DNA from: Butyricimonas virosa
GTDB taxonomy: Bacteria > Bacteroidota > Bacteroidia > Bacteroidales > Marinifilaceae
Length of the DNA: 64,000 bases
NCBI GenBank assembly: GCA_020743075.1
Contig: DYVS01000149.1
Span: 8,159 to 72,158, forward strand
Direction of reading: 5' to 3'
Numbering within the stretch: the stretch's first letter is position 1; every line of letters starts with the position of its first letter. Below the pieces are notes generated by a model, which did no database searches, had not been told where the DNA came from, and was given only the letters and a program-made list of their open reading frames with translations. Positions 10,453-52,830 of the stretch are shown piece after piece. The position numbers and the translations under genes are program-made.

Positions 10453-10542
<90 letters not shown>

Positions 10543-10562
10543 CCAAGTTTGAAGCTCATTTT

Positions 10563-10636
10563 CGGGGCGTAGCGCAGTCCGGTAGCGCATCTGCTTTGGG
10601 AGCAGAGGGTCGCAGGTTCGAATCCTGTCACCCCGA
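10563..10636 (+). tRNA. tRNA-Pro (anticodon TGG)
   Basis: Acceptor CGGGGCG/CACCCCG (C1:G72, A73 as in bacterial tRNA-Pro), D-arm GCGC-AGTCCGGTA-GCGC, anticodon arm TCTGC-TTTGGGA-GCAGA, T-arm GCAGG-TTCGAAT-CCTGT; CCA not encoded. Confidence 0.9.
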
Positions 10637-10703
10637 CGGTTGAAAATCAAGGGGTTATCATAGAGAATGACTCCTTTTTTTGTATCCTAGAATATAATAT
10701 ACT

Positions 10704-10733
10704 CCCGTTTTTACCCGTTTTTACCCGTTTTTT
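10704..10733 (+). repeat. 3 x 10-bp tandem direct repeat (CCCGTTTTTA, CCCGTTTTTA, CCCGTTTTTT)
   Basis: Read directly between tRNA-Pro and the integrase start; candidate arm-type recombinase binding sites or part of the int promoter. Confidence 0.6.
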
Positions 10734-10777
10734 CGTACATTTGTTTGCAAATAGTTTGCAAAAAATTGGTGAGAAAT

Positions 10778-35818: not shown

Positions 35819-36029
35819 AATAGCGAAGAAAGTATTAAACACGCACGGTAAAAATTACTTGAAAAGATACAGGGAATTGAGACAGCCTTTCAAGAAGGTA
35901 ATAAATGGTTCAGAACGGTTAGTTTACCCGTCATGGCACGATTTACCGCTCATTAAAAAGGCTACTCGAAGGATAATAAGACAACATAACAAGTATAAAT
36001 ATAAAAACAATAACGATGAAGATGACTAG
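35808..36029 (+). CDS. small basic protein
   Basis: 73-aa ORF. Confidence 0.4.
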   Translation: MRLRIAKKVLNTHGKNYLKRYRELRQPFKKVINGSERLVYPSWHDLPLIKKATRRIIRQHNKYKYKNNNDEDD

Positions 36030-36207
36030 AGTATACAAGATAGAAACAAGGGGCAGCGTGATAACCCTGTACCGGAGAAGACTGGGTTTCCTGTGGTTTT
36101 CCGTCGAATCACGCACTTTTGGCTATTCTCAACATAGAATTAAAATCATGAAGGAATGGTTCGCAAAGTACGGGAAGGAGAATTTCATATCCGACAAGTG
36201 TTATTAA
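36016..36207 (+). CDS. hypothetical protein
   Basis: 63-aa ORF, last gene of the packed early block. Confidence 0.4.
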   Translation: MKMTRVYKIETRGSVITLYRRRLGFLWFSVESRTFGYSQHRIKIMKEWFAKYGKENFISDKCY

Positions 36208-36229
36208 AATATTTTATATCTTTGCACCA

Positions 36230-36637
36230 CGGCACGTGAAGGTGTGCCACGAAAATATTACGAACTAGTTCATTGTTCAGCAGAAATCGCCAGTTTCAAA
36301 TTTGAATAATCAAATGAGCTAGTTGGGCTTCCTATACGGTGGCTTGGCTAGTAGTTTGATTGTTAGGTCTCTGGCGATTCCTTGCTGACAGCGAACGTTA
36401 AGCCACTTTTTTATGGATAACGAAACAAAACAAGTTATAATCGACATCTCGCCCCTCGTGATCAGCGAGAGGTTCGATATATGGTACTTGTTAGAAGTGC
36501 CTGTTGATCCCGCTCTGGTTTTAGAGAAATACCCCGTGTGTGATAATTGACGTACTATGCTAGATGTGCCGCATGGCGAGTGATGCAAGTTAGAGTGGCA
36601 ACGTAGCGGCTTCTGGAAACGGGGGCCGCTTTTTTTA
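36230..36637 (+). ncRNA. candidate large structured ncRNA (about 400 nt)
   Basis: -7 box TATCTTTG at 36217-36224; terminator AGCGGC-N14-GCCGCT plus T7 at 36605-36637; helices 36278-36293/36371-36387 and 36309-36322/36348-36360, crossing helix GTGGCTT 36339-36345/AAGCCAC 36400-36406, ATCGA-CTCGC...GCGAG-TCGAT around 36440-36477; no credible ORF. Confidence 0.5.
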
Positions 36638-36739
36638 TATAGACTAATTTTAAATTTATAATCAAATAAACTTTTGTTATTTGCTATCGTATAATATACC
36701 ACTATGTGAAAGTAGCATTGGATAATAAAATAAATTTGC

Positions 36740-36766
36740 TATATTTGATAAATGATTATACATTTG
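36740..36766 (+). promoter_or_regulatory. tandem -7 boxes for the 36790 unit
   Basis: TATATTTG (36740-36747) and TACATTTG (36759-36766) upstream of ATG 36790. Confidence 0.45.
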
Positions 36767-36789
36767 CGCACCAATTTTAATAATATATT

Positions 36790-37389
36790 ATGGAAAGCGT
36801 TGCATTACAATATATTGTAGATAATTGGCCAACATTTGCCATCATCTTCATCGTTAGCATCACGTGTTATCGTATAGCAAGAAAATTCACGAAATGGGAA
36901 GATAAGCACAATAACATGCATAATGACAACGACAAGGAACACGACAAACTTATTGAATTGGTTAATAAAGCTCTATTTAAAATTGACACCCTTGAAAGAT
37001 TTCTTATAAAAAGAGGTGGGGCTGACTATGATGAGTTCACCAGAATGAATAGCCCTAGACAACTAAATGAAAAGGGACGTAAATTATTTAACGAGAGTGG
37101 AGCAAACGATTTCTTTGAAAACAACAAGCAACCTCTACTTCGTTTGTTAAATTCTGAAATATCAGAAATGAGAAACAAAACAGCATTAGATGTTGATTCT
37201 TGTGCGGCAAGGATATGTTTCAGTGTATCTAACAATAAAGATTTCAAAAAAATCAAAGATTTCGTGTACACTCATCCAGTATTTGAAGGCACGAATATAA
37301 CCATTAACACTATTACTATGTTAATGGGTATCGAGTTAAGAAATGAATACTTGAAATTGCATCCAGAGATAGATCCGATGTCTGAATAA
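36790..37389 (+). CDS. membrane-anchored hypothetical protein
   Basis: 199 aa; N-terminal TM (WPTFAIIFIVSITCY) then a soluble helical domain. Confidence 0.5.
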   Translation: MESVALQYIVDNWPTFAIIFIVSITCYRIARKFTKWEDKHNNMHNDNDKEHDKLIELVNKALFKIDTLERFLIKRGGADYDEFTRMNSPRQLNEKGRKLFNESGANDFFENNKQPLLRLLNSEISEMRNKTALDVDSCAARICFSVSNNKDFKKIKDFVYTHPVFEGTNITINTITMLMGIELRNEYLKLHPEIDPMSE

Positions 37390-37455
37390 AATATTTTAGC
37401 ATCAAAGTGATACATGAACTTTTAAAATACTGCCAATAACCTAAAATTAAAATTT

Positions 37456-37728
37456 ATGGAAGAAGAATATATCGAGGATGATAGTATTGACTCTGGAATC
37501 TCTATTAAACTTGGGAAAAGAACGGATAGTTTTGAGATGCTAGAAAGATTGTGCAAAGAAGAAGCTGAAAAATTACGGGCAACCATCGAGGTTCCTGATC
37601 ACGGGAAGGTTTCGGTTCCTTTTTGGACTGCTTACCAGTTCTCTGAACTTATCGGGGTAGCTTATTTTAGCAAGGACAAAAATGGAGAGGTTGTATACGA
37701 GCTAGATTTCTCTGAAACGACGTTATAA
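37456..37728 (+). CDS. hypothetical acidic protein
   Basis: 90-aa ORF followed by a strong terminator. Confidence 0.45.
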   Translation: MEEEYIEDDSIDSGISIKLGKRTDSFEMLERLCKEEAEKLRATIEVPDHGKVSVPFWTAYQFSELIGVAYFSKDKNGEVVYELDFSETTL

Positions 37729-37982: not shown

Positions 37983-38429
37983 TCATGTGGCGTGTTTTTC
38001 AAGTTTCACATCTATATCTTTATCGTGACAATCACATATCAATCTCTTGATGGTCGGGAACATCATTTGCGCTATATCCCCGTTAATATAACAAGTCTCT
38101 TCTCCTTCAAGGTCTAGCCCGTTCGCCACGGCAACGTGCACCGACAAGTGATGTAACTCGTGAACGATCAGGTTAAAATACTGTTCCGGGCTTGTTGACA
38201 TGGCGAACACCACCACGGATTCCCGGGAAAAGAAATTACTAAAAGTCAAACCGTTATTCACCTGACCCGTGGATAGATTCATGTACGCCCGCTTCAAGCT
38301 ATAACCATCACACCCGAGATCCCTCAAGGTGTGCATGATCTCGTTCACGTGATACCTGGTGACGGGGTAAAAAGCGGTGACGTGCCACTTTTTACCTTTA
38401 ACGGTGATATTTAACTCCTGCCGGATCAT
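37983..38429 (-). CDS. putative zincin-like metallopeptidase (HExxH)
   Basis: 148 aa from ATG 38429 (ATGA overlap with the upstream stop); LIVHELHHLSVH motif. Confidence 0.45.
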   Translation of the reverse strand: MIRQELNITVKGKKWHVTAFYPVTRYHVNEIMHTLRDLGCDGYSLKRAYMNLSTGQVNNGLTFSNFFSRESVVVFAMSTSPEQYFNLIVHELHHLSVHVAVANGLDLEGEETCYINGDIAQMMFPTIKRLICDCHDKDIDVKLEKHAT

Positions 38430-38848
38430 ATCATGTCTTCCCAGGGTATAGGAATACCCTTGTCTTCTTGTTTGGTTATCCAGCAACGGAACACGCTTTC
38501 CGGTACCCCGTCAACGTCATCAATCTCGTCTTTCACCGCTTTACACAAGTGCAGCTCGTCCTCCACGCTAGACTTCCACCGGTCAGCGAGAATCATGTTC
38601 ATCACGTACACGAAGTTGTAACCAACGTTGTTCTCCAGTGTTACCCCGTTCTTGGATAGCAACTCTTCCGCCTTGTCTTTAGAATACGGCTCTATGTTTT
38701 CCAGTTTTCCGGTGGCGTTGTTCTTTCGCTTCATCTGGCTCACGGCGTACTCGCACGCTCTCTTCGAGAACGAGTACCCGTAATTCCTGAGGTACGCTCT
38801 CATCTCTTGCGGTATGTAGTTAAAACTACTTAATGCCTGTTTACACAT
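38426..38848 (-). CDS. hypothetical protein
   Basis: 140-aa ORF coupled to the HExxH gene. Confidence 0.45.
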   Translation of the reverse strand: MCKQALSSFNYIPQEMRAYLRNYGYSFSKRACEYAVSQMKRKNNATGKLENIEPYSKDKAEELLSKNGVTLENNVGYNFVYVMNMILADRWKSSVEDELHLCKAVKDEIDDVDGVPESVFRCWITKQEDKGIPIPWEDMI

Positions 38849-42094: not shown

Positions 42095-43942
42095 TTAAGC
42101 GGTTGCGAATGTTATCTGTTTAGCGGTTGCGGCCTCGATCAAGGCGTGCCAATCTACCTGCCCCTCGTCTTGAATCTTGTCGTAGACATCTGCATGAACG
42201 GTAACCGTGATTGGTGATGTGTTGGCGGCGTTGGTGATCAGGTATTGCAATGATTCAAGAGAAAGTAATGGAGAATCAGGGAATGAAATACTAGCAGATA
42301 ATTTATATAATAAAGCAGTTTCAAGTAAAATACATTGACTAAACGTATGATCAAAATATGATTTATCTTTTATACTATATACATATATCTGATTTATAAT
42401 TCGTTTTAATTTTTTACAACCATGAAACGCATAAAACATATCATCAGTCCTAATCATTCTAGTTTCATTAATATTATTACCAAAAGATAATCTAAGAACT
42501 TCCAATTTTTGATTAAAAAAGAATGATTCTCTAAAACTAACTATTCTACCATTTGTTTGTGTAATACCCATATTAAATCCAAGATTGGTTCTAAAAGTAG
42601 AACTAGCAAAAATATTATAATAAGATGAAAGCTTATCCATCACATGAGTTTGGAGGTAAATAGTTTTCATCTCCTCCTCCGTTATATCCGTCAACCCGTT
42701 CAGCTCGTAGAATCCAGTTTGCTCGTTATACACGGCCCCGGCGGCAACGTACAAGGCACGGTTTCCTTGCTGGGTGTTGAGAACGGTGGTGAGGTCGTTT
42801 ATACTTGTCGTTAATTCATCTTGCGCTGTCTTGATCTCTTCCACGGTTCCCGCGACGTTGTCCCCCTGCTCCTTGGCGTAATTCGCTTGTGTCGTGGCGT
42901 TTAAAGTGGCCGTCTCGGATTCTGATTTCAACCTGTTGAACTCGGTAACACGTCCTTCTTCTGCTTTTACACGGTTCGTCTCGGATTCTTTTCGTGATTG
43001 CTCGTTCGTGTCACGGGTGTTTTCAGCCGTTTGACGCTCGTTCTCTTTCTCGACACGGGTGTTTTCCGCTGTCACCCTGTTGTTTTCAGTTTCAACCCTC
43101 GATTGCTCGGCTTTCACCCTGTTATCCTCGGCGCTCGCCCTGCCAGTCTCTGCCGTTTCTCTAGCTTCCTCGTTGCTGGCACGGGTATTCTCGGCCTCTC
43201 GTCTCAGGTTCTCGGATTCCTTCCGGGCATTCTCGCTGGAAACACGTGTATTCTCGTTATTGATTCGCTGTTGCTCGTTTGCAGTCACCGCTTTATCAAG
43301 GGTATCCAAGGCATCGATCATGGCTCTAGCCGGCTCCTGTAACTCCTTGATTTGCTCTTCCGTGAAATCGGAATACTCGAAAGCCTTACCACGGGAAGGT
43401 TTGCCCGTGTCAACGTCACCGATCCACCAGTTGCCGTTCTCGCCGATAAACGGGGTTAAGCCGTCCTTGCCCTCTGCAACAACTCCCGTGTCCTCGATAC
43501 CGATCATCCAGCGTTTCGTATCCGGGTCTATTCTCGGTGTCACCCCGTCTTTCCAGTCCCTGTTACGCTCGATAATCCCTTTCAAGTTGATGGACGGTGA
43601 TTCACTCTCGAAACCGGCGTCTTCCTTGCAAGTCAAGTCAACGAGAATGAAAGCGTTGCAGAAGTCAAGGTAGAACTTGTCAATACCGGTCACGCTAGCC
43701 TCGTTCAGCTTCTCGTAATACAGGTGAACCTCGTATTGCCCAGAGGTAGCGTTACCGCCACCAACGAACTCGAATTCAATAATGTTGTCGTGTATCGTTA
43801 AAGGGGGAGATACTTGATAACTGCTGTACTTCCGGTTTATCGTCAACCTCACGTTTCTAGCGTCCGTGAAGTCCTCCGGCTCGTCGTTCAGCCGGTTCAC
43901 CGTTAACTTGAAAAATATGTTTTTGCCTACCCTTATTCTCAT
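42095..43942 (-). CDS. tail fibre / receptor-binding protein with BspA-type LRR C-terminus
   Basis: 615 aa; GVTPRIDP...GENGNWWIGDVDTGKPSRG fibre motif, 15 ExxRxxx heptads, C-terminal LRR-like segment (FHGCKKLKRI, FSQCILLETALLY). Confidence 0.65.
   Translation of the reverse strand: MRIRVGKNIFFKLTVNRLNDEPEDFTDARNVRLTINRKYSSYQVSPPLTIHDNIIEFEFVGGGNATSGQYEVHLYYEKLNEASVTGIDKFYLDFCNAFILVDLTCKEDAGFESESPSINLKGIIERNRDWKDGVTPRIDPDTKRWMIGIEDTGVVAEGKDGLTPFIGENGNWWIGDVDTGKPSRGKAFEYSDFTEEQIKELQEPARAMIDALDTLDKAVTANEQQRINNENTRVSSENARKESENLRREAENTRASNEEARETAETGRASAEDNRVKAEQSRVETENNRVTAENTRVEKENERQTAENTRDTNEQSRKESETNRVKAEEGRVTEFNRLKSESETATLNATTQANYAKEQGDNVAGTVEEIKTAQDELTTSINDLTTVLNTQQGNRALYVAAGAVYNEQTGFYELNGLTDITEEEMKTIYLQTHVMDKLSSYYNIFASSTFRTNLGFNMGITQTNGRIVSFRESFFFNQKLEVLRLSFGNNINETRMIRTDDMFYAFHGCKKLKRIINQIYVYSIKDKSYFDHTFSQCILLETALLYKLSASISFPDSPLLSLESLQYLITNAANTSPITVTVHADVYDKIQDEGQVDWHALIEAATAKQITFATA
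42941..43255 (-). repeat. 15 tandem heptads (E-x-x-R-x-x-x) in the fibre shaft
   Basis: ENTRVSS ENARKES ENLRREA ENTRASN EEARETA ETGRASA EDNRVKA EQSRVET ENNRVTA ENTRVEK ENERQTA ENTRDTN EQSRKES ETNRVKA EEGRVTE. Confidence 0.85.
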
Positions 43943-46398: not shown

Positions 46399-49300
46399 TT
46401 AATATGCCCTACCTGCTATGTTAGCAACAAAATTTCCCCCTCCAGACCATAAAACAATGTCCACGGCGTCACCTTTTTCTAGTGATAAATACGTGATTGC
46501 GGACCCGTTTTCGTTGTAAAGCGTGCATCCGTCACTTGGGTATAGTCTTGCAGAAGCATTATAAGTAAAAATCGATATTTTAATCATGAAAGCTTGTGAT
46601 GCCGATGAATCTAAAAATAAAACTTTCCTGATATGAGCTAAAGTTGGTAAATACACGTTAGTCAAAGAAGATAAATTGAGCATCACAATTTTACCACGAT
46701 CTATACGAATCGGACCGGAATTTGATAGTTCATAATACCTGTAATCAATTATAGCGTCACGAGAAACTATCAAACCATTATTAGCATAAATGGCATAATT
46801 GCGCCCGGCATCCGTGTACGTGTTAGGATGTCCAGTAGAATCTAATTTTAGAGCCACGTTGCATTGTGGCGCAGAACTAGCCCACACGGTACTAACTTCA
46901 AAACGAGCGGCTACGACCCCAAATCCCGTAGAAGAAGGAATGGTATTCACGCCTATCATGGCTAAAACATCATCATCTTTAAATTTAATAAAACTATCAT
47001 ATAGAGACATGCCTTTCGTTGGATTATTGATCGAACTAATAGTTCCTATTCTCCCGTTAGCTAAAGAGAATCCACCTATCTCGCTAGATTTTCCTAGTTT
47101 TAACAATTCTGAACCATCAACTTTCCCTATCAACCCCCAATCGCTATCATTGTTATAAAACAGGCTGATGTAATTATTCTCATCCTTGTAAGCCTTGAAA
47201 GACCTTTCCTCGTCTTTTGAAGTGATCTTGACACCCGGCCCAGTCCCGAAATCGCTACCACCGTAAATCTGCCCGTTTTGAAACTCGAACCCGCCGACAG
47301 AAATCATGTTAGCTGTGATAGACCCGGCTTTTAGAATGTTCGTTGATAACTTGTCAACCAGAGCGGTATCCGCCACCAGCGTCTCCACGTCAATCAACTT
47401 GGTGTTAATGTACGCCCCCTTGATTATCGTTTCACCTTTCGAGGCGTTCTCTACCATCTTGTCAAAATTACTATACCCAAGTTGTTGGGCGAGGTCATCC
47501 TTGGCGCTAAATTCTATATCCCCGTACCCGTCGGCGGTCAGGTCGAACGCCGTCATGTAAGCGATATACCATTCTAACGGGTCGGATTCGGTAGGAGCGG
47601 GTCCACCACTTATGTACACGTGTCCACCCACGCTAAAAGTTCCGGTTGCCCCGCAGACAACCTTACGAAGGTACGTCGTGTATTTCCCTGTACCCTCCGT
47701 GGGAGTTAGCCACGTGTCAGAATAGCCCGCTCCCATGCTATTGGAAGCTGTATTTATTTTATAACCAACAGGTATTTTGGCGATAATTTTTTGCACAAAC
47801 ACGGCATTCGCCCGGGAGGTTATATACTGGTATACCCCGCCATGCCCGGGTGCTTGAGCTGCTTTACACGTGACTTTCAGGCAGTACCCGGATTGTGTCG
47901 GGGCATCCGATGGCTTGGTAACTCTCTCTACCGTTAGTTTCGAAGCGATGTAATCAGGGGAGACGTTGCTTGAATTAGTGTATTTTGCCACCCCGTTTAA
48001 TCCCTTCTTGAACTCCGGGTCAGCGTACAGCATCTTTCCCCCGTCCATGCCGATCGCCCCGGTTGCCTTGTCAGCTTGCGCTTTCGCCGCTGCCGCAATC
48101 GAGTTGAGGATAGTTTGACGGGCGGGGTAATATGCCGCTATGTTATTGTAATCTGACCCCACCGCTATGTTTTCCGGTGATGTCGCGGTGTACTTGTCTA
48201 AAGCTGCTATGGCGGCATCGTAGGCTGACATGTAAGACGCCAACGAGATACTGAACCTGTTAGCGTTCGCCTCGATCTCGTTCTTTTCCGCTTGTATATC
48301 GCTCTTCTGCTGCCTCAATGCCGTTTTCTCCTGCGGGGAGATATAACCGTCGCTGGCCCATTCCCCGAGGCGGTTGTTTATCTCGTCAAATTCTTTTTGC
48401 ACGTCCCCAGCCGAAGGGCTCCATGAAGCGGGAGGGGTGAAGCCCTCGACGAGCATGATTTCGGTGAATTTTACACTTCGTAATAGTCCTTCCGACTGTA
48501 TGCCCGGGTAAAATAATAACCTGCCCTCTCTAGCAGTAAAATTGTTATTTGTTATCAACAATCCCGAGTTCATGCCCGCCTTGATAGTCCCTCTTGCGTA
48601 TCTTTGGGATTCAGCCAAGCTTGTGTCGTACAATCGAAATTCATACCCAGAAGGAATATCTCCAGAAATGACTTCTGCATTTGTAAATCTAAGCGAGTAA
48701 ACCGTGTTAGGTTTAATCACGGGAACTTTTAACGTTTTATAAGTTTGACTTGCTACCGTCACCTCTTTCCCCCCGTCCACCAGGTTCACGTTACTCTGCC
48801 CGGTTAGGTCTTCCGTCGCAACAGGAGGTTCGGCCAAGACCTTGTTTCCCTCGTAGAGGGCGAGGGAGTAGATAAAATTCGAGTAGGTTTGTCCCGGGTT
48901 CGCCACGTTCCAGTATAATCGAGCGATTGTCTTTCCTTGTTTAGAAATATAGTCATAACGCTTGTAGACAGAATCTTTTATCAGAAACGCTGCTTCTTTT
49001 GTGCTATCCGTGTATTCAACAATTAAATAAGGTCTCCATGATGAACCACCACTTGGATTCCCCTTGCAATTTACAGAGATAACGTATTGCGTACCATTCT
49101 TAAAATTGCTATACAATGTTGTATTATCCTTCGGGGCTACAGAAATATATATACCATCAGAATCTTGTCCCCATATTGCAGAACCATTAGCCGTGTTGTT
49201 CATGTCCAAAAGTATCTTCCTGCTCACTAGGTTTACGGAGCCGATTTGCAAGTTATTAACGGCATCCTGTCCCCCGATAATCCCTTGTTCCGTGGCGTAC

Positions 49301-52300
49301 CTGTTTTGATCCGCTATTGACGGGCTCCAGTCTGTTGCCTTGTTACCCTTCTCGTATTTCCAATCGGTTATATATATCGTGTTTTTTGTCCCGAAATGAA
49401 TAATATCTGACCCTGCTTTAGCCGTGAAAGTTATCACCTTTCTTTCCCATGATGTCGTCACGTGAACGGTAGTTGCCCCGTAGTTTGAACCATTATAGTG
49501 ATTCACTTGAGCGTCATATTCCTCGCTTCCCTTGACCCATAGCGAGAAAGTGTACTCGCCATCTTCTACCATCACGTGTGCGAATCTACAATTCGCAGAA
49601 TTCCGGTTAAATTGCAGGCAAGTTTTCCCCTCAATCTTTGTTTTTGAAGCGTATGAACTGTCATAAAGCCCGAGTACATCCAGGAAATTCCCCCCGCTAT
49701 AATCCGCCAAGTTGATTCCCCCAATTTGAAGGTTACCGACCGACTCGTCCGCCACCTTTTGCGCTATGACGTTGGCGAAGGCGGTACGCTCGGAGTAGTA
49801 GTTGGCGAAGTCTTGGTTGTACTCGGTCTTCTGCGCCACGGACAGGTTGCTGTCAATATCCTGCGCTATTTTAACCGTGTTCGTCAAGAACGTGTTCAGC
49901 GTGTTGTAGGCGTTTTGAAGGGCAGTTATAGAGACCCCGTACTTTGTCGCTTGCGCTTGGTAGGCAGTGAATTCTTTCTGTATTTGATTCCACGTGTCCC
50001 GTAGGGTGGCTTTCTCTTCCTTCGTGATAACGTTATCATCCGCCATCTTCGCCAGCCGGAGCATGGTGTCATTGAAAAGCTGCCAGTCGGACTGGGAACC
50101 GGTCTCGCCGTCTAACCTTTGATGGTTGCAGATGTACATCGAACCGTCAAGTTTTATCCACATGTCGTTGATGTTGTACGGTGCCTCCGGTAGCGTGTTT
50201 CCCCACGTGATGGTTGCTTTCGTCCCGGCTAGACCGAGGGCTTCTCTCGCCACGCTGGCGGCCAATGCCGAGCCGGAATCGGCGACACGTACCCATTGAT
50301 ATTCCCCGTTTAACTTCGAGAACTTGTACCTCTCCGTCACATTCTGCCCGTCAACGGTCAAGAAGTAATCGTAGTAATCACCGATATGTCGATTCTTCTC
50401 TTCTTCCGAGGTCCATTTCACCGCCGGCTCGTTCGTCAACGTCGGGGGGACCGTCCCTTCATGAGACATTATACTACCGTCTATCTGCCCCTGCAAGTCG
50501 GGAATAATTACGGAAGTGAGGTCGTTCACCACGTATTGAACCGAATCCGCCAAGTCTTTAGCGTCCTGTATCCTCTTGTCAACGTCCTCGTACTCGTCAA
50601 ATTGCTCGAGACCTGATGACCCGGCCGTTATGTGAACCTCTCCCCGGATAACCGCACCTTTCTTCCCCCCGTGTTTCCCTAGCCACGATCCCTCCTTGTT
50701 GGAAAGGTCGAAACTGTTTATACCGTAATACGTGAATATACCCACCTCCCCGTTAACGGCAGATAACAACACTGCATCCTGTCGATCCGGGTTCGTCCTG
50801 TTGCCGAGTTGCACTATCTCGTCCCCCTCGGCAGGCACGCCGTCACCGTCCTTGTCGACCCGGGAGATGTCGATGTAATCGTCACCCCTTGATAGAACTA
50901 GCGACCACAGGTACTTTATGTTGTTACCCGTGAAGTTCTGTATCCTCGCTTGATCGTTCACCTCGAACTCGTTGAAGTCCTCCGGCCTGCAATAAACACG
51001 GTAGTAAGTGTCGAAGGTCTCGACACGGTCAATCTTGAACCCCGTTGCCGGGCTTAACACCATTATCCCTCCTTGAAACCTCATTCGCTGGATCATCATT
51101 TCAAGGACGTACATGATCTTGCGAACGAGTAACTTGTCCGTCTGCAACTCGTCATCGTTCACCATCCCGACACCGGCACCGAGAGGCCCGGCGGCGAAGT
51201 TCCAGCTCTTGAAAGAACGTAACAACACGTCACGAAACTCGGCGTTACCGAGGGCGTCTATTACCCATCCCTTTAACTTGCTCTCGAAGTCTGTGGAGGT
51301 AACGCTATTGAACTTTACGGGGTCATAAGTGTGGAGTTTTTGATCCATCCATAACGGTCTCCATTGATTGATGAGAACGTTGAATAATCTCCGCACGTCT
51401 TCTAGGCTTATAAGTTGCTTTAGAGTGACTTGTATTTGCTCGATTTGATTATTCACGTTATCCTCGTAAGAATACAGTATCTCATCGCCAAGCTCGTAGT
51501 TTATTTCATCGCTACTTGAAGATTGATTTATCGCTAATATGCGTGTATTTATACTATGCTCACCTACTTTTACTGTTATGCTGTCTCCAATATCTAAAGA
51601 ATATCCCTTTTTGGTGAGAAATCTTTTACTAACTTTTACACTTGGAGCGTATTGTGGTTCACTCCTTTTATTTAATTCTTCTTGTGTCGCTTTTCTTAAT
51701 TCTTCTTCAGCCTCGTCAATGTAGGATTGAGGCATATTTATATTTAGCAAGACAAAAACGTCCCCAATTCTAGGTTGCCTACTTGTGTTAGGCAGCCTGT
51801 AACCATCCTCTTCTTCTTGAACGATGATTTGTAACGTTTTATCAGTGTTATTCCAGCTATTATCAACAATTTCAAATTCACTTCCGGTTAGATCTCCTGT
51901 TTGGAACTTGACAATTGGCACTTTATCATCTGCGTATTGTTGGGATAAATCAAACGGGATGTCGAGTTTTAACTTCCATGCAACAGCTTTTTCAATATCT
52001 TCTGGTATGGTAACATCTAAAACGGTCTTGTTTATTAGCCTAGGGAATATATTATCATTCGTGTAAACACCCGTGATTTTACCGTATTTATCAGTATTTT
52101 TTTCTAATATATCATTTCCTAAATTTAAACGTTTAGGAGTGTCAGGAGAGACGTAATCTTTAGGTAGATTAACTGTTCCACCTTTCCCAATCAGTCTGGT
52201 GGCAATAAAAGTATTTTGCACTTTGTCAAGTCTAACTGAATATCCTCCTTTCTCCTTGCCGTATTCGAACACTACATCCACGTCTTTCCCGATACGGTAT

Positions 52301-52830
52301 TTCACGTTAATACTAGTGCCTATAAGGTTCCATTCCATGTTTGCCGCCTCGCATATATCATCGAGAGCTTGGAAACAAGAGCTATTGTCAAATTCGAGAT
52401 CGATAATATTACCCTCGTCAATATCCCCTGCAGTGTATTCTTGTTGATCCTCGTTCAAGGATAATATTACAAGATCAACGAATTCTTTTATTCCCCCGTG
52501 ATAAGGGAATGTGGTCGCTCCCTCGTCTTTCACAATGGAAAATTTCAACTTATAGTCAGGAGAACGAAAGACAAGAGGGTAGGAGAAGACCCCATTACTT
52601 TCTTCCACGTCAATAGGGTCATAAATAGTGTAATGGCTACCGTCTTCTATGATGTAATCCCCTATTTTGATGTCAAGACTATCCTTTGATTCAACATTAA
52701 ATGACACGTTATTATCGTGAGACATCGAACGTCTTATGTCATCATCTTCTATTACGAAATCGTGCTTCTTTACGCCTAGCCTGTATATGCTATATGTCTT
52801 CATTTGCATGGATAATTTTGCTTGTTTCAA
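46399..52830 (-). CDS. giant tail tip / host-specificity protein (Tal-like N-terminus)
   Basis: 2143 aa, follows Dit; N-terminal region resembles the phage minor structural protein N-terminal domain; long beta-rich C-terminal extensions. Confidence 0.7.
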   Translation of the reverse strand: MKQAKLSMQMKTYSIYRLGVKKHDFVIEDDDIRRSMSHDNNVSFNVESKDSLDIKIGDYIIEDGSHYTIYDPIDVEESNGVFSYPLVFRSPDYKLKFSIVKDEGATTFPYHGGIKEFVDLVILSLNEDQQEYTAGDIDEGNIIDLEFDNSSCFQALDDICEAANMEWNLIGTSINVKYRIGKDVDVVFEYGKEKGGYSVRLDKVQNTFIATRLIGKGGTVNLPKDYVSPDTPKRLNLGNDILEKNTDKYGKITGVYTNDNIFPRLINKTVLDVTIPEDIEKAVAWKLKLDIPFDLSQQYADDKVPIVKFQTGDLTGSEFEIVDNSWNNTDKTLQIIVQEEEDGYRLPNTSRQPRIGDVFVLLNINMPQSYIDEAEEELRKATQEELNKRSEPQYAPSVKVSKRFLTKKGYSLDIGDSITVKVGEHSINTRILAINQSSSSDEINYELGDEILYSYEDNVNNQIEQIQVTLKQLISLEDVRRLFNVLINQWRPLWMDQKLHTYDPVKFNSVTSTDFESKLKGWVIDALGNAEFRDVLLRSFKSWNFAAGPLGAGVGMVNDDELQTDKLLVRKIMYVLEMMIQRMRFQGGIMVLSPATGFKIDRVETFDTYYRVYCRPEDFNEFEVNDQARIQNFTGNNIKYLWSLVLSRGDDYIDISRVDKDGDGVPAEGDEIVQLGNRTNPDRQDAVLLSAVNGEVGIFTYYGINSFDLSNKEGSWLGKHGGKKGAVIRGEVHITAGSSGLEQFDEYEDVDKRIQDAKDLADSVQYVVNDLTSVIIPDLQGQIDGSIMSHEGTVPPTLTNEPAVKWTSEEEKNRHIGDYYDYFLTVDGQNVTERYKFSKLNGEYQWVRVADSGSALAASVAREALGLAGTKATITWGNTLPEAPYNINDMWIKLDGSMYICNHQRLDGETGSQSDWQLFNDTMLRLAKMADDNVITKEEKATLRDTWNQIQKEFTAYQAQATKYGVSITALQNAYNTLNTFLTNTVKIAQDIDSNLSVAQKTEYNQDFANYYSERTAFANVIAQKVADESVGNLQIGGINLADYSGGNFLDVLGLYDSSYASKTKIEGKTCLQFNRNSANCRFAHVMVEDGEYTFSLWVKGSEEYDAQVNHYNGSNYGATTVHVTTSWERKVITFTAKAGSDIIHFGTKNTIYITDWKYEKGNKATDWSPSIADQNRYATEQGIIGGQDAVNNLQIGSVNLVSRKILLDMNNTANGSAIWGQDSDGIYISVAPKDNTTLYSNFKNGTQYVISVNCKGNPSGGSSWRPYLIVEYTDSTKEAAFLIKDSVYKRYDYISKQGKTIARLYWNVANPGQTYSNFIYSLALYEGNKVLAEPPVATEDLTGQSNVNLVDGGKEVTVASQTYKTLKVPVIKPNTVYSLRFTNAEVISGDIPSGYEFRLYDTSLAESQRYARGTIKAGMNSGLLITNNNFTAREGRLLFYPGIQSEGLLRSVKFTEIMLVEGFTPPASWSPSAGDVQKEFDEINNRLGEWASDGYISPQEKTALRQQKSDIQAEKNEIEANANRFSISLASYMSAYDAAIAALDKYTATSPENIAVGSDYNNIAAYYPARQTILNSIAAAAKAQADKATGAIGMDGGKMLYADPEFKKGLNGVAKYTNSSNVSPDYIASKLTVERVTKPSDAPTQSGYCLKVTCKAAQAPGHGGVYQYITSRANAVFVQKIIAKIPVGYKINTASNSMGAGYSDTWLTPTEGTGKYTTYLRKVVCGATGTFSVGGHVYISGGPAPTESDPLEWYIAYMTAFDLTADGYGDIEFSAKDDLAQQLGYSNFDKMVENASKGETIIKGAYINTKLIDVETLVADTALVDKLSTNILKAGSITANMISVGGFEFQNGQIYGGSDFGTGPGVKITSKDEERSFKAYKDENNYISLFYNNDSDWGLIGKVDGSELLKLGKSSEIGGFSLANGRIGTISSINNPTKGMSLYDSFIKFKDDDVLAMIGVNTIPSSTGFGVVAARFEVSTVWASSAPQCNVALKLDSTGHPNTYTDAGRNYAIYANNGLIVSRDAIIDYRYYELSNSGPIRIDRGKIVMLNLSSLTNVYLPTLAHIRKVLFLDSSASQAFMIKISIFTYNASARLYPSDGCTLYNENGSAITYLSLEKGDAVDIVLWSGGGNFVANIAGRAY

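What the first reader, a model, noticed from the sequence alone, without database searches (positions are those of the whole stretch)
36208..36790. Candidate 400-nt structured ncRNA with its own promoter and terminator at the end of the early operon
About 580 nt carry no credible coding potential. The only ORF, on the minus strand at 36319-36702, translates to a low-complexity, unprotein-like sequence. A -7 box TATCTTTG (36217-36224) precedes the region. A terminator AGCGGC-N14-GCCGCT-TTTTTTT (36605-36637) closes it. In between are long-range nested helices: CAGCAGAAATCGCCAG (36278-36293) pairs with CTGGCGATTCCTTGCTG (36371-36387), enclosing ATCAAATGAGCTAG (36309-36322) paired with CTAGTAGTTTGAT (36348-36360). 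A helix GTGGCTT (36339-36345)/AAGCCAC (36400-36406) crosses both, giving pseudoknot topology. A second domain (ATCGA-CAT-CTCGC...GCGAG-AGG-TTCGAT, ATGGTAC/GTACTAT) follows. Size and complexity are in the range of the ornate large phage-associated RNAs, but I cannot match it to any named family.
Basis: partly seen in the sequence, partly recalled or inferred. Interest (0 to 1): 0.65.

Follow-up and report, generated by a model that had tools for sequence, protein, structure and literature searches.

The report
Structured leader plus small phage gene
The supposed 400-nt non-coding RNA of this gut Bacteroidales prophage is a small self-contained gene cassette: a promoter, a conserved ~185-nt RNA leader that can fold in two competing ways, a real 45-codon gene for an unknown acidic protein, and a terminator.

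Summary
The sequence features are real. The TAnnTTTG -7 box, the nested long helices, the GTGGCTT/AAGCCAC complementarity and the terminator all sit at the stated coordinates. About 40 related phage and metagenome loci carry them as one ~430-bp cassette, followed by at least 9 different downstream sequences.

The claim of "no coding potential" is wrong. A + strand ORF (36413-36550, 45 aa) is intact in every relative and evolves like a protein gene. Codon-position diversity is 0.106/0.053/0.225. Alternative codons are 29 synonymous to 22 non-synonymous, against 8:44 and 5:48 in the other two frames. One lineage has an in-frame 3-nt deletion, and peptide homologues reach down to 49% identity.

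The 5' leader is a genuine + strand RNA structure, a ~130-nt hairpin. It is 96% paired, 29 of 52 pairs carry compensatory changes, and 6-14 pairs per lineage are G.U.

A second, mutually exclusive fold is also conserved. In it the 5' arm folds on itself. The 3' arm pairs with AAGCCAC to form a hairpin followed by U5-8 that abuts the AUG.

Best reading: an mRNA whose bistable leader gates a small protein by attenuation or by occluding the start region. The trigger and the protein's function are unknown. There is no Rfam, Pfam, PHROG, PADLOC or PDB match. The RNA-seq evidence is inconclusive.

The parts
36195..36224 (+). Promoter region with the sigma-ABfr-type -7 box TATCTTTG (36217-36224). The predicted transcription start is about 36229-36231. 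This is also the 5' boundary of the mobile cassette.
   Evidence: Searches give the motif. It is conserved as TAnnTTTG in all relatives, in the L059 group and in the chromosomal subfamily. Upstream sequence diverges from about 36195-36205 in L043, L056 and L058. The consensus is taken from PMC7366714. The transcription start has not been mapped.
36231..36248 (+). Small 5' hairpin H0 (GGCACG-UGAAGG-UGUGCC).
   Evidence: Seen in the folds. It is 100% paired in 31 sequences, with one-sided changes only: C>U, A>G, G>A, U>C (helix 1).
36262..36400 (+). Long leader hairpin (paired 36268-36396). It has 52 pairs, 12 of them G.U, and serves as the 'antiterminator / open' state.
   Evidence: MFE folds of six lineages give the same shape, -51 to -62 kcal/mol. 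The covariance model scores 164.6 bits on + and 18 bits on -. 96.1% of cells are paired, 29 of 52 pairs have changes on both sides, 0 of 500 shuffles reach this, and slid controls are at most 46.5% paired. The + strand is 9-23 kcal/mol more stable than the - strand in every lineage.
36261..36325 (+). Alternative hairpin H1: the 5' arm folded on itself (closing stem 36261-36273 with 36314-36325).
   Evidence: RNAalifold found it on the structure-naive MAFFT alignment. 98.4% of cells are paired and 4 of 12 pairs changed on both sides. It is the MFE structure of the nascent chain ending at 36324-36354.
36339..36412 (+). Alternative hairpin H2: GUGGCUUGGC (36339-48) pairs with GUUAAGCCAC (36397-06), followed directly by a U-run (36407-12) and then the AUG. 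This is the terminator-like, start-region-occluding state.
   Evidence: It folds alone at -24.5 to -33.2 kcal/mol in all 8 lineages tested, and the U-run is 5-8 nt in all of them. The closing stem is 98.4% paired. Positions 8-9 vary as G.U, A-U or G-C and are never A.C.
36413..36550 (+). Small ORF of 45 codons, MDNETKQVIIDISPLVISERFDIWYLLEVPVDPALVLEKYPVCDN. By my residue count it has 9 acidic and 3 basic residues.
   Evidence: It is intact in all homologues. Nucleotide diversity by codon position 1/2/3 is 0.106/0.053/0.225. Variable columns number 14/8/27, and alternative codons are 29 synonymous to 22 non-synonymous, against 8:44 and 5:48 in the other frames. L056-58 carry an in-frame 3-nt deletion. 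Homologues exist at 55% and 49% identity.
36566..36601 (+). 3'UTR hairpin with a conserved loop (GCGAGUGAUGCAAGUUAGAG).
   Evidence: Folds. Pair 36570:36597 appears as C-G, U-A or U.G and never C.A. The hairpin is deleted in L001 and L018 and trimmed in L057 and L058, so it is dispensable. It is replaced entirely in the L059 group.
36605..36637 (+). Intrinsic terminator (an 11-bp stem, GGAA loop, T7) and the 3' boundary of the cassette.
   Evidence: Found by the scan. The pairs are kept with one-sided changes. At least 9 unrelated sequences begin immediately after the T-run in relatives.

Best explanation
The region 36195-36637 is a compact, independently transcribed, moron-like cassette of a temperate Bacteroidales (Butyricimonas-type) siphophage.

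It specifies a ~410-nt mRNA made of four parts:
- a ~185-nt structured leader;
- a 45-codon ORF for a small acidic protein of unknown function;
- a 3'UTR hairpin;
- an intrinsic terminator.

The leader has two conserved, mutually exclusive folds.
- State A is one ~130-nt hairpin, with the 5' arm paired to the 3' arm. It leaves AAGCCAC-U6-AUG single-stranded.
- State B has the 5' arm folded on itself (H1). The 3' arm pairs with AAGCCAC (H2) to give a 10-bp-closed hairpin followed at once by U5-8 and the start codon.

I infer that the leader gates the small ORF. State B would stop transcription at the U-run, leaving a ~185-nt leader RNA, and/or bury the translation-initiation region. State A would allow read-through and translation.

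H1 forms first on the nascent chain. The outcome would therefore depend on whether something (a protein, an RNA, transcription speed, or RNase III cleavage of the long hairpin) holds H1 or releases it.

Shown: the cassette boundaries, the coding ORF, the + strand RNA hairpin with covariation, and the conservation of the alternative helices.
Inferred: actual transcription from the -7 box, termination or occlusion by H2, and the existence of a trigger.
Unknown: what the protein does.
For: - Cassette: 12 IMG/VR, 23 metagenome and 1 genome locus carry it. There are at least 9 different downstream contexts and several upstream ones. The promoter motif is conserved.
- Coding ORF.
- Long hairpin.
- Alternative fold: RNAalifold on the unfitted alignment picks H1 and H2. 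These are 98.9% paired, with 7 pairs changed on both sides, and slid controls reach at most 45%. H2 is -24.5 to -33.2 kcal/mol and always followed by U5-8. The alternative fold lies 9-24 kcal/mol above the MFE. H1 is the MFE of the nascent chain up to 36354.
- One-sided conservation: the GUGGCUU 3' strand is invariant while its apical partner differs between lineages A, B, C and D.
- A distant chromosomal subfamily of the same peptide also has a TAnnTTTG promoter and a long leader with a 134-nt hairpin, z = -7.4.
- Long 5'UTRs are uncommon in Bacteroides, where the median is 32 nt (PMC7366714).
Against: - No transcript ends have been mapped. Only low-depth assembled contigs from RNA libraries were available, and they cover neighbouring phage DNA at similar depth.
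- RNA-library contigs cross the internal U-run (X7, X8 and X6). If these are RNA, at least some read-through occurs.
- State A is 9-24 kcal/mol more stable, so state B needs a factor or a kinetic trap.
- The H2 closing stem is almost invariant, so it has little true covariation (1 pair). Part of the H1/H2 support comes from one divergent lineage, and the structure tested was derived from the same alignment.
- H2 spans about 68 nt, which is long for an intrinsic terminator.
- No sensor was found. The only candidate leader peptide (GUG at 36236) changes length and frame between lineages.
- The covariation alignment for the long hairpin was fitted by the covariance model, which leans towards that structure.
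Confidence: 0.55

Rival explanations
1. Dual-function or mainly non-coding RNA. The functional product would be the leader RNA itself: a ~185-nt sRNA ending at the internal U-run, or processed from the mRNA. It would act in trans on phage or host transcripts, for example as a co-transcribed immunity RNA of the P4 CI or P1 c4 kind. The small ORF would be secondary.
For: - The leader is conserved more tightly than the ORF in some comparisons. The L059 group has a nearly identical type-A hairpin by my reading, with covariance model scores of 165.7 vs 164.6 bits. Its peptide is only 55% identical and its 3'UTR is different.
- Leader lineages and ORF types assort independently.
- H2 plus the U-run could release a discrete leader RNA.
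- The 3'UTR loop sequence is invariant.
Against: - The ORF is under clear purifying selection everywhere.
- No complementary target longer than 13 nt exists in the 64-kb window, which is what chance gives.
- No short transcript has been observed.
- The element lies at the end of the early operon, not at its start as immunity RNAs do.
Confidence: 0.2
2. The long hairpin is chiefly an RNase III processing and stability element, as in the lambda N leader or the T7 early mRNAs. After cleavage, the 3' product would refold into H2, which would then act as a protective 5' stem-loop or a translation modulator. This would not be a co-transcriptional attenuator.
For: - The hairpin is a ~50-bp, near-continuous dsRNA kept in shape across lineages while its sequence drifts. 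That is typical of a structure-read substrate.
- The 3' arm can refold on its own into H2.
- Knowledge of lambda N-leader RNase III control comes from my own memory and was not checked here.
Against: - It does not explain why H1, the self-pairing of the 5' arm, is conserved.
- It does not explain why a U-run always follows H2.
- No cleavage data exist.
- It is compatible with the main explanation rather than exclusive of it.
Confidence: 0.15
3. A purely non-coding, ornate ~400-nt structured RNA.
For: The whole unit folds better than shuffles, z = -4.1. It has its own promoter and terminator. The ORF has no protein-family hit.
Against: The ORF has a coding signature. The proposed second-domain helices lack covariation and are broken by synonymous changes. 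There is no Rfam match.
Confidence: 0.04
4. A DNA-level element (replication origin, pac/cos site, attachment or recombination site), or a type I toxin-antitoxin locus.
For: It lies in the intergenic position at the junction of convergent operons. Recombination breakpoints fall at its 3' end. Highly structured small-ORF mRNAs are typical of type I toxins.
Against: - The hairpin is strongly strand-asymmetric. It has 6-14 G.U pairs per lineage, the + strand is 9-23 kcal/mol more stable, and the model scores 164.6 vs 18 bits.
- There are no iterons or repeats.
- No TAnnTTTG box lies on the minus strand within 36208-36640, so no antisense RNA promoter is evident.
- The peptide is acidic and has no hydrophobic helix.
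Confidence: 0.04

Closest known systems
Terminator/antiterminator transcription attenuators (trp-type 1:2 / 2:3 / 3:4 leaders; protein- or RNA-dependent attenuators)
   Same: There are four interacting segments. Segment 1 is 36261-73. Segment 2 is 36309-33. Segment 3 is 36339-60. Segment 4 is 36397-06 plus the U-run. The 1:2 pairing (H1) and the 3:4 pairing (H2 plus U5-8) exclude 2:3, the core of the long hairpin. The regulated ORF starts right after the U-run.
   Different: No conserved leader peptide, ligand pocket or protein-binding repeats were found. The antiterminator is an unusually long ~50-bp hairpin that is thermodynamically dominant. The terminator hairpin spans ~68 nt. Termination has not been demonstrated.
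Co-transcribed antisense immunity RNAs of phages P4 (CI RNA, seqA/B/C) and P1/P7 (c4 RNA upstream of icd-ant); recalled from my own knowledge
   Same: A segment inside a phage leader RNA (GUGGCUUGGC) is complementary to a site further down the same transcript, just before a small ORF's start and a U-run. Sequence lineages diversify while pairing is kept, which recalls heteroimmune variants.
   Different: The element lies at the end of the early operon, not in an immunity region. The complementary motif itself is invariant, so it cannot encode specificity. No processing evidence exists and no trans target was found. It is not homologous to either RNA and has no Rfam hit.
RNase III-sensitive leader hairpin upstream of lambda N; recalled from my own knowledge
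   Same: A long hairpin in a phage 5' leader lies close to the start codon of a small regulatory gene, and the structure could control access to the start region.
   Different: The phylum is different and has no Shine-Dalgarno mechanism (PMC7366714). There is no nut site, and the gene product is unrelated and unknown.
Large 'ornate' phage-associated RNAs (GOLLD, ROOL, HEARO/omega RNA) and Bacteroidales Rfam motifs
   Same: It is phage-borne, conserved, structured and of unknown function.
   Different: No covariance-model match was found. It is far simpler, with one long hairpin and no multi-stem junctions. One third of it is protein-coding.

Membership tests
Any Rfam 15 family (including 6S, tmRNA, GOLLD, ROOL, HEARO, T-box, riboswitches) | A covariance-model score at or above the family's gathering threshold | tested here: not met
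   The window had only two tRNAs at gathering threshold. Region 35900-37000 at E<=10 gave only noise of 11.6-17.6 bits against gathering scores of 40-80. Related loci gave none. ARAGORN found no tmRNA.
Terminator/antiterminator attenuator | A hairpin followed by a U-tract lies between the promoter and the regulated ORF | tested here: met
   H2 (36339-36406) is followed by U6 at 36407-12 and then the AUG at 36413. It is present in 8 of 8 lineages with U5-8.
Terminator/antiterminator attenuator | A mutually exclusive alternative structure shares one strand of the terminator, and both are conserved | tested here: met
   The long hairpin uses 36339-48. H1 and H2 are conserved. The energy gap is 9-24 kcal/mol.
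Terminator/antiterminator attenuator | An identifiable sensor (leader peptide, ligand aptamer, protein- or tRNA-binding site) | tested here: not met
   There is no riboswitch or T-box hit. By my reading of the alignment, the candidate uORF from GUG at 36236 has 10 codons in lineages A and B and 5 in C and D, and it is frame-shifted in L041 and L047.
Terminator/antiterminator attenuator | Terminated and read-through transcripts are observed | not testable with these tools
   Only low-depth assembled contigs of RNA libraries were available. No read ends could be examined.
Protein-coding small ORF (bona fide gene) | The reading frame is kept, substitutions concentrate at the third position with a synonymous excess, and indels come in multiples of 3 | tested here: met
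   L056-58 carry an in-frame 3-nt deletion. Distant peptide homologues exist.
Type I toxin-antitoxin | A small hydrophobic or membrane toxin plus an antisense or divergent sRNA with its own promoter | tested here: not met
   The peptide has 9 acidic and 3 basic residues by my count and no transmembrane segment. No minus-strand -7 box lies in 36208-36640.
P4 CI / P1 c4-type immunity RNA | It is located in the immunity region at the head of the early or antirepressor operon, is processed to a small stable RNA, and acts in trans on the same sites of a superinfecting phage | tested here: inconclusive
   Internal complementarity is present. The location is the end of the early operon. In the L059 group the ANT-like gene lies upstream, not downstream. 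Processing and trans action cannot be tested here.
Replication origin / packaging site | Iterons, AT-rich unwinding element or strand-symmetric DNA repeats | tested here: not met
   No repeat families beyond chance two-copy matches of 11-15 nt were found. The hairpin is strand-asymmetric.

The most novel reading that the evidence does not exclude
The leader would be a new class of phage riboregulator: a bistable RNA in which a ~130-nt antiterminator hairpin competes with a terminator that abuts a small ORF. Its rapidly diversifying but always-complementary arms, which fall into at least 5 lineages that reassort freely with the ORF, would act as specificity determinants. These could serve a trans-acting leader RNA that lets a resident prophage shut off the same cassette in a superinfecting relative, or an unknown sensor. 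The 45-aa acidic protein would be a new phage effector, such as an anti-defence or regulatory protein, shared with a chromosomal Bacteroidota locus.
Probability: 0.15. Interest if true: 0.75.

Novelty: new variant of a known kind. Interest (0 to 1): 0.5.

Why it matters
RNA-based regulation in Bacteroidota and their phages is poorly charted. These organisms lack Shine-Dalgarno-led initiation and have few described attenuators or sRNAs (PMC7366714).

This work defines three things:
- a new, widespread RNA structure family with strong covariation, found in human gut, bovine, chicken and wastewater samples;
- a testable two-state leader;
- a new small-protein family with no annotation in any library searched.

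The cassette also marks a cargo-insertion hotspot, directly after its terminator, in a group of gut Bacteroidales temperate phages. That is useful for finding phage accessory and defence genes.

There is a practical lesson too. An 'intergenic structured RNA' call made from sequence alone can hide a real sORF.

Tried and rejected
- Rfam cmscan of the window, of the region at E<=10 and of four related loci gave nothing.
- ARAGORN found no tmRNA.
- BLASTN (distant mode) and TBLASTN against 50,697 GenBank phages gave no match.
- Pfam, PHROGs, PADLOC and PDB-sequence searches of the peptide and its neighbours gave no informative hit.
- The AlphaFold2 model of the peptide has pLDDT 63, a beta-hairpin plus a short helix. 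It is too weak for a fold search, so none was run.
- The leader-peptide (uORF) idea was rejected because the frame and length are not conserved, by my reading of the alignment.
- Trans-target search in the window: the longest complement is 13 nt, as expected by chance.
- Antisense promoter search found none.
- Iteron and repeat search found none.
- 5'-3' closure of the mRNA (GCCACUUU with AGAGUGGC), seen in the MFE, was rejected. By my reading, the G>A change at 36597 breaks it, while it covaries with 36570 inside the local 3'UTR hairpin.
- RNA-seq: only Logan contigs at depth 2-6 were available, with phage neighbours at similar depth, so there is no transcript-end information.
- The literature search found no description of this element.
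- Similarity of the peptide core to 'DVWY..VP' repeats of large secreted proteins was judged to be motif-level only.
Full report
WHAT IS THERE

The window is a temperate siphovirus-like prophage of a Bacteroidales host. Its landmarks are:
- tRNA-Ser and tRNA-Pro next to a tyrosine integrase;
- a long + strand early block with a primase-helicase;
- a convergent - strand late block with portal, terminase and tape-measure genes.

The only species-level genome holding the same peptide is a Butyricimonas sp. MAG.

The finding lies at the 3' end of the + strand block. At the stated coordinates I find:
- the -7 box TATCTTTG at 36217-36224, which fits the sigma-ABfr consensus TAnnTTTG (PMC7366714);
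- a strong intrinsic terminator at 36605-36630 plus T7;
- between them, sequence that folds far better than shuffles on the + strand (-139 kcal/mol, z = -4.1) and less well on the - strand (-111 kcal/mol).

No Rfam family matches at gathering threshold, and only noise appears at E<=10. There is no tmRNA.

RELATIVES AND BOUNDARIES

Searches with neighbouring proteins, with DNA patterns and with the peptide gave about 40 loci from IMG/VR, metagenomes, one MAG and ENA/Logan contigs.

All share one block, from about 36195-36205 to the end of the terminator T-run. Immediately after the T-run at least 9 unrelated sequences follow. Upstream there are at least 4 contexts. The unit is therefore a ~430-bp cassette with its own promoter and terminator. 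Its 3' end is a cargo or recombination hotspot. In the window the cargo is a 199-aa protein with an N-terminal membrane segment, which has its own promoter (TACATTTG at 36759), plus a 90-aa ORF.

THE MISSED GENE

On the + strand, 36413-36550 encodes 45 aa: MDNETKQVIIDISPLVISERFDIWYLLEVPVDPALVLEKYPVCDN.

The evidence that it is a real gene:
- It is intact in every relative.
- In the first alignment, the seven single substitutions in its first 23 codons are all third-position and synonymous.
- Over 31 distinct sequences, diversity by codon position 1/2/3 is 0.106/0.053/0.225.
- Variable columns number 14/8/27. Alternative codons are 29 synonymous to 22 non-synonymous, against 8:44 and 5:48 in the two other frames.
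- One lineage carries an exact 3-nt deletion.

Exhaustive HMMER and profile searches find two more distant groups:
- a phage group at 55% identity (P0005, on at least 24 contigs);
- a chromosomal group at about 41-49% identity (P0008, P0010-P0013).

The family consensus is M-[DE]-x-x-T-[KR]-Q-[IV]-...-P-x-V-x-E-[KR]-x-D-[IV]-W-[YC]-L-x-E-x-P-x-[DE]-P-...-P-[VI]-[CG]-x-N.

The peptide has no Pfam, PHROG, PADLOC or PDB-sequence match. The AlphaFold2 model is of low confidence (pLDDT 63). The ORF is real, but its function is unknown.

THE LEADER HAIRPIN IS A REAL + STRAND RNA STRUCTURE

The stretch 36268-36396 forms one ~130-nt hairpin with 52 pairs.

At least five sequence lineages exist:
- A: the window;
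- D: L035 and L037;
- an A/D chimera: L042;
- B and B': L016, L036, L056, L058, L041, L047;
- C: L054, L055, L057.

Each lineage, folded alone, gives the same shape at -51 to -62 kcal/mol.

I built a covariance model from lineage A only. It recovers all lineages on the + strand at 39-167 bits. The window's own hairpin scores 164.6 bits on + and 18 bits on -.

On the resulting alignment:
- 96.1% of cells are paired;
- 29 of 52 pairs show changes on both sides;
- no shuffle out of 500 reaches this;
- sliding the partners by 1-3 columns drops pairing to 28-46.5%.

That alignment is fitted to the model. The independent single-sequence folds are the control for this.

Every lineage has 6-14 G.U pairs and is 9-23 kcal/mol more stable as + strand RNA than as its complement. 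That argues against a DNA-level element. No iterons are present, the hairpin occurs once in the window, and there is no minus-strand promoter box.

A SECOND, COMPETING FOLD IS ALSO CONSERVED

RNAalifold on the plain MAFFT alignment does not pick the long hairpin. It picks two local hairpins instead.
- H1 is the 5' arm folded on itself, with closing stem 36261-73 paired to 36314-25.
- H2 pairs GUGGCUUGGC (36339-48) with GUUAAGCCAC (36397-06).

Counted on that unfitted alignment together with H0, these helices are 98.9% paired. Seven pairs changed on both sides, four of them in H1. Slid controls are at most 45% paired. The caveat is that the structure was derived from the same alignment.

In all eight lineages tested, the 3' half alone folds into H2 (-24.5 to -33.2 kcal/mol), and H2 is always followed at once by 5-8 U and then the AUG. 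Forcing H2 gives a global fold only 9-24 kcal/mol above the MFE, and in it the 5' arm forms H1.

GUGGCUU is invariant, while its partner in the apical stem of the long hairpin differs between lineages: UUGGGCUUCC, GGUCAC, CGAGUC and AAGUCGCAU. That one-sided constraint is what a strand with two alternative partners would show. Positions 8-9 of H2 vary as G.U, A-U or G-C and are never A.C.

On a growing chain, H1 is the MFE structure from 36324 to 36354. It is replaced by the long hairpin only once 36360 is reached.

A true pseudoknot is sterically implausible, because AAGCCAC lies about 4 nt from the base of a ~50-bp stem. This point is my inference.

Together the layout is the classical 1:2 / 2:3 / 3:4 attenuator logic.

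THE REST OF THE TRANSCRIPT

- The 5' hairpin H0 (36231-48) is 100% paired, with one-sided changes only.
- The 3'UTR holds one hairpin (36566-36601). Its pair 36570:36597 appears as C-G, U-A or U.G, and its loop is invariant.
- That hairpin is deleted in L001 and L018, trimmed in L057 and L058, and replaced in the L059 group along with the terminator. It is therefore dispensable.
They have no compensatory change and are broken in 9-19 of 31 sequences by codon-driven substitutions.

MOSAICISM

Leader lineage and ORF type assort independently.
- L036 has leader B with the window's peptide.
- The L059 group has a nearly identical type-A hairpin by my reading, with covariance model scores of 165.7 vs 164.6 bits. 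It combines this with a 55%-identical peptide, a different promoter context (downstream of a Bro-N/ANT gene) and a different terminator.

The position is kept across these phages. The cassette is the last + strand unit before the convergent late genes, and a DUF7841 gene lies nearby in both groups.

The chromosomal subfamily (L065-L072) again has a TAnnTTTG promoter and a ~430-nt leader with a small 5' hairpin and a 134-nt hairpin (z = -7.4). There the sORF's stop overlaps the start of a 103-aa three-TM protein. A long structured leader thus travels with this sORF family even where the sequence is unrelated.

TRANSCRIPTION EVIDENCE

The cassette sequence is present in RNA-type libraries from faeces, wastewater, bovine and chicken gut. 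Only assembled contigs at depth 2-6 were available, and other parts of the phage appear at similar depth.
- One chicken-gut metatranscriptome contig runs from early genes into the cassette and stops near 36608. In that sample late genes are at depth 50-137, so the phage appears to be active.
- Contigs of three libraries cross the internal U-run.

This is compatible with transcription and read-through. It proves neither the start, nor the ends, nor a short species.

MECHANISM

I commit to the following reading. The cassette makes an mRNA for a small acidic protein, and its leader is a two-state gate.
- With the long hairpin formed, the start region is open and transcription runs through the U-run.
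- With H1 and H2 formed, the transcript ends at the U-run and/or the start region is buried. That region includes the only A residues at -12/-13, which matter for Shine-Dalgarno-less initiation in this phylum (PMC7366714).

My confidences are:
- coding ORF and + strand structured leader: about 0.9 each;
- the two-state gating function: about 0.4-0.5;
- the trigger: unknown.

The rivals are detailed in the rival-explanations section. They are a trans-acting or dual-function leader RNA, an RNase III processing element, a purely non-coding RNA, a DNA-level element, and a type I toxin-antitoxin locus.

COMPARISON AND NOVELTY

The cassette works most like a terminator/antiterminator attenuator. It has a flavour of the co-transcribed antisense RNAs of P4 and P1 and of the lambda N-leader hairpin; those three comparisons are from my own knowledge. 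It is not a member of any curated RNA or protein family searched.

I rate it a new variant of a known kind: a new RNA structure family plus a new sORF family, with a familiar regulatory logic whose sensor is missing.

Noticed in passing
window 36638-37728: A variable cargo slot lies directly after the cassette's terminator. In the window it holds a 199-aa protein with an N-terminal membrane segment (36790-37389), with its own -7 box TACATTTG at 36759, plus a 90-aa ORF (37456-37728). Neither has a family hit. Relatives carry at least 9 unrelated sequences at this point. In L016 these include a weak HEPN-like 85-aa ORF and a SecB-like ORF.
   Followed up: partly
L065-L072 (e.g. L066:4620-5520): A chromosomal, non-phage-looking subfamily of the same small protein exists at 41-49% identity. 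It lies upstream of a Na/Ala symporter and a DEAD-box helicase where the contigs reach that far. It has a TAnnTTTG promoter and a ~430-nt leader with a 134-nt hairpin (z = -7.4). The sORF stop overlaps the start of a 103-aa three-TM protein. L071 and L072 carry a ~100-nt deletion in the leader.
   Followed up: partly
L059-L064 (e.g. L059:4795-5215): A second phage group has a nearly identical type-A leader hairpin joined to a 55%-identical peptide. It has a different 3'UTR and terminator and sits downstream of a Bro-N/ANT antirepressor-like gene. This shows modular exchange at the start codon.
   Followed up: partly
window 10453-11977: tRNA-Ser(gct) and tRNA-Pro(tgg) lie immediately upstream of a tyrosine integrase with Arm-DNA-binding and SAM-like domains. 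This is probably the prophage attachment end.
   Followed up: no
window 12000-16000: A low-GC island (GC 0.27-0.32, against ~0.40-0.48 around it) carries minus-strand ORFs. One of them (13320-14168) has a weak RHS-repeat hit.
   Followed up: no
window 46399-52830 (-): A 2143-aa ORF in the late block has no Pfam match at all. The 615-aa ORF at 42095-43942 likewise has none.
   Followed up: no
window 36576-36605 vs L001 and L018: Two relatives carry a clean ~30-nt deletion that removes the 3'UTR hairpin and leaves the terminator intact. L057 and L058 have smaller deletions in the same hairpin.
   Followed up: yes
P0006, P0007, P0009 (not in the window): The peptide core FDIWYLxEVP matches the repeated 'DVWYxxxVP' motif of 950-1600-aa secreted repeat proteins at E = 1e-6 to 4e-4. 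This is probably motif-level resemblance only.
   Followed up: no
window 38426-38848 (-): A DUF7841 / phrog_38431 protein lies at the start of the convergent late block. The same family sits in the equivalent position in the L060-L064 phages, which helps to anchor the synteny of the junction.
   Followed up: no
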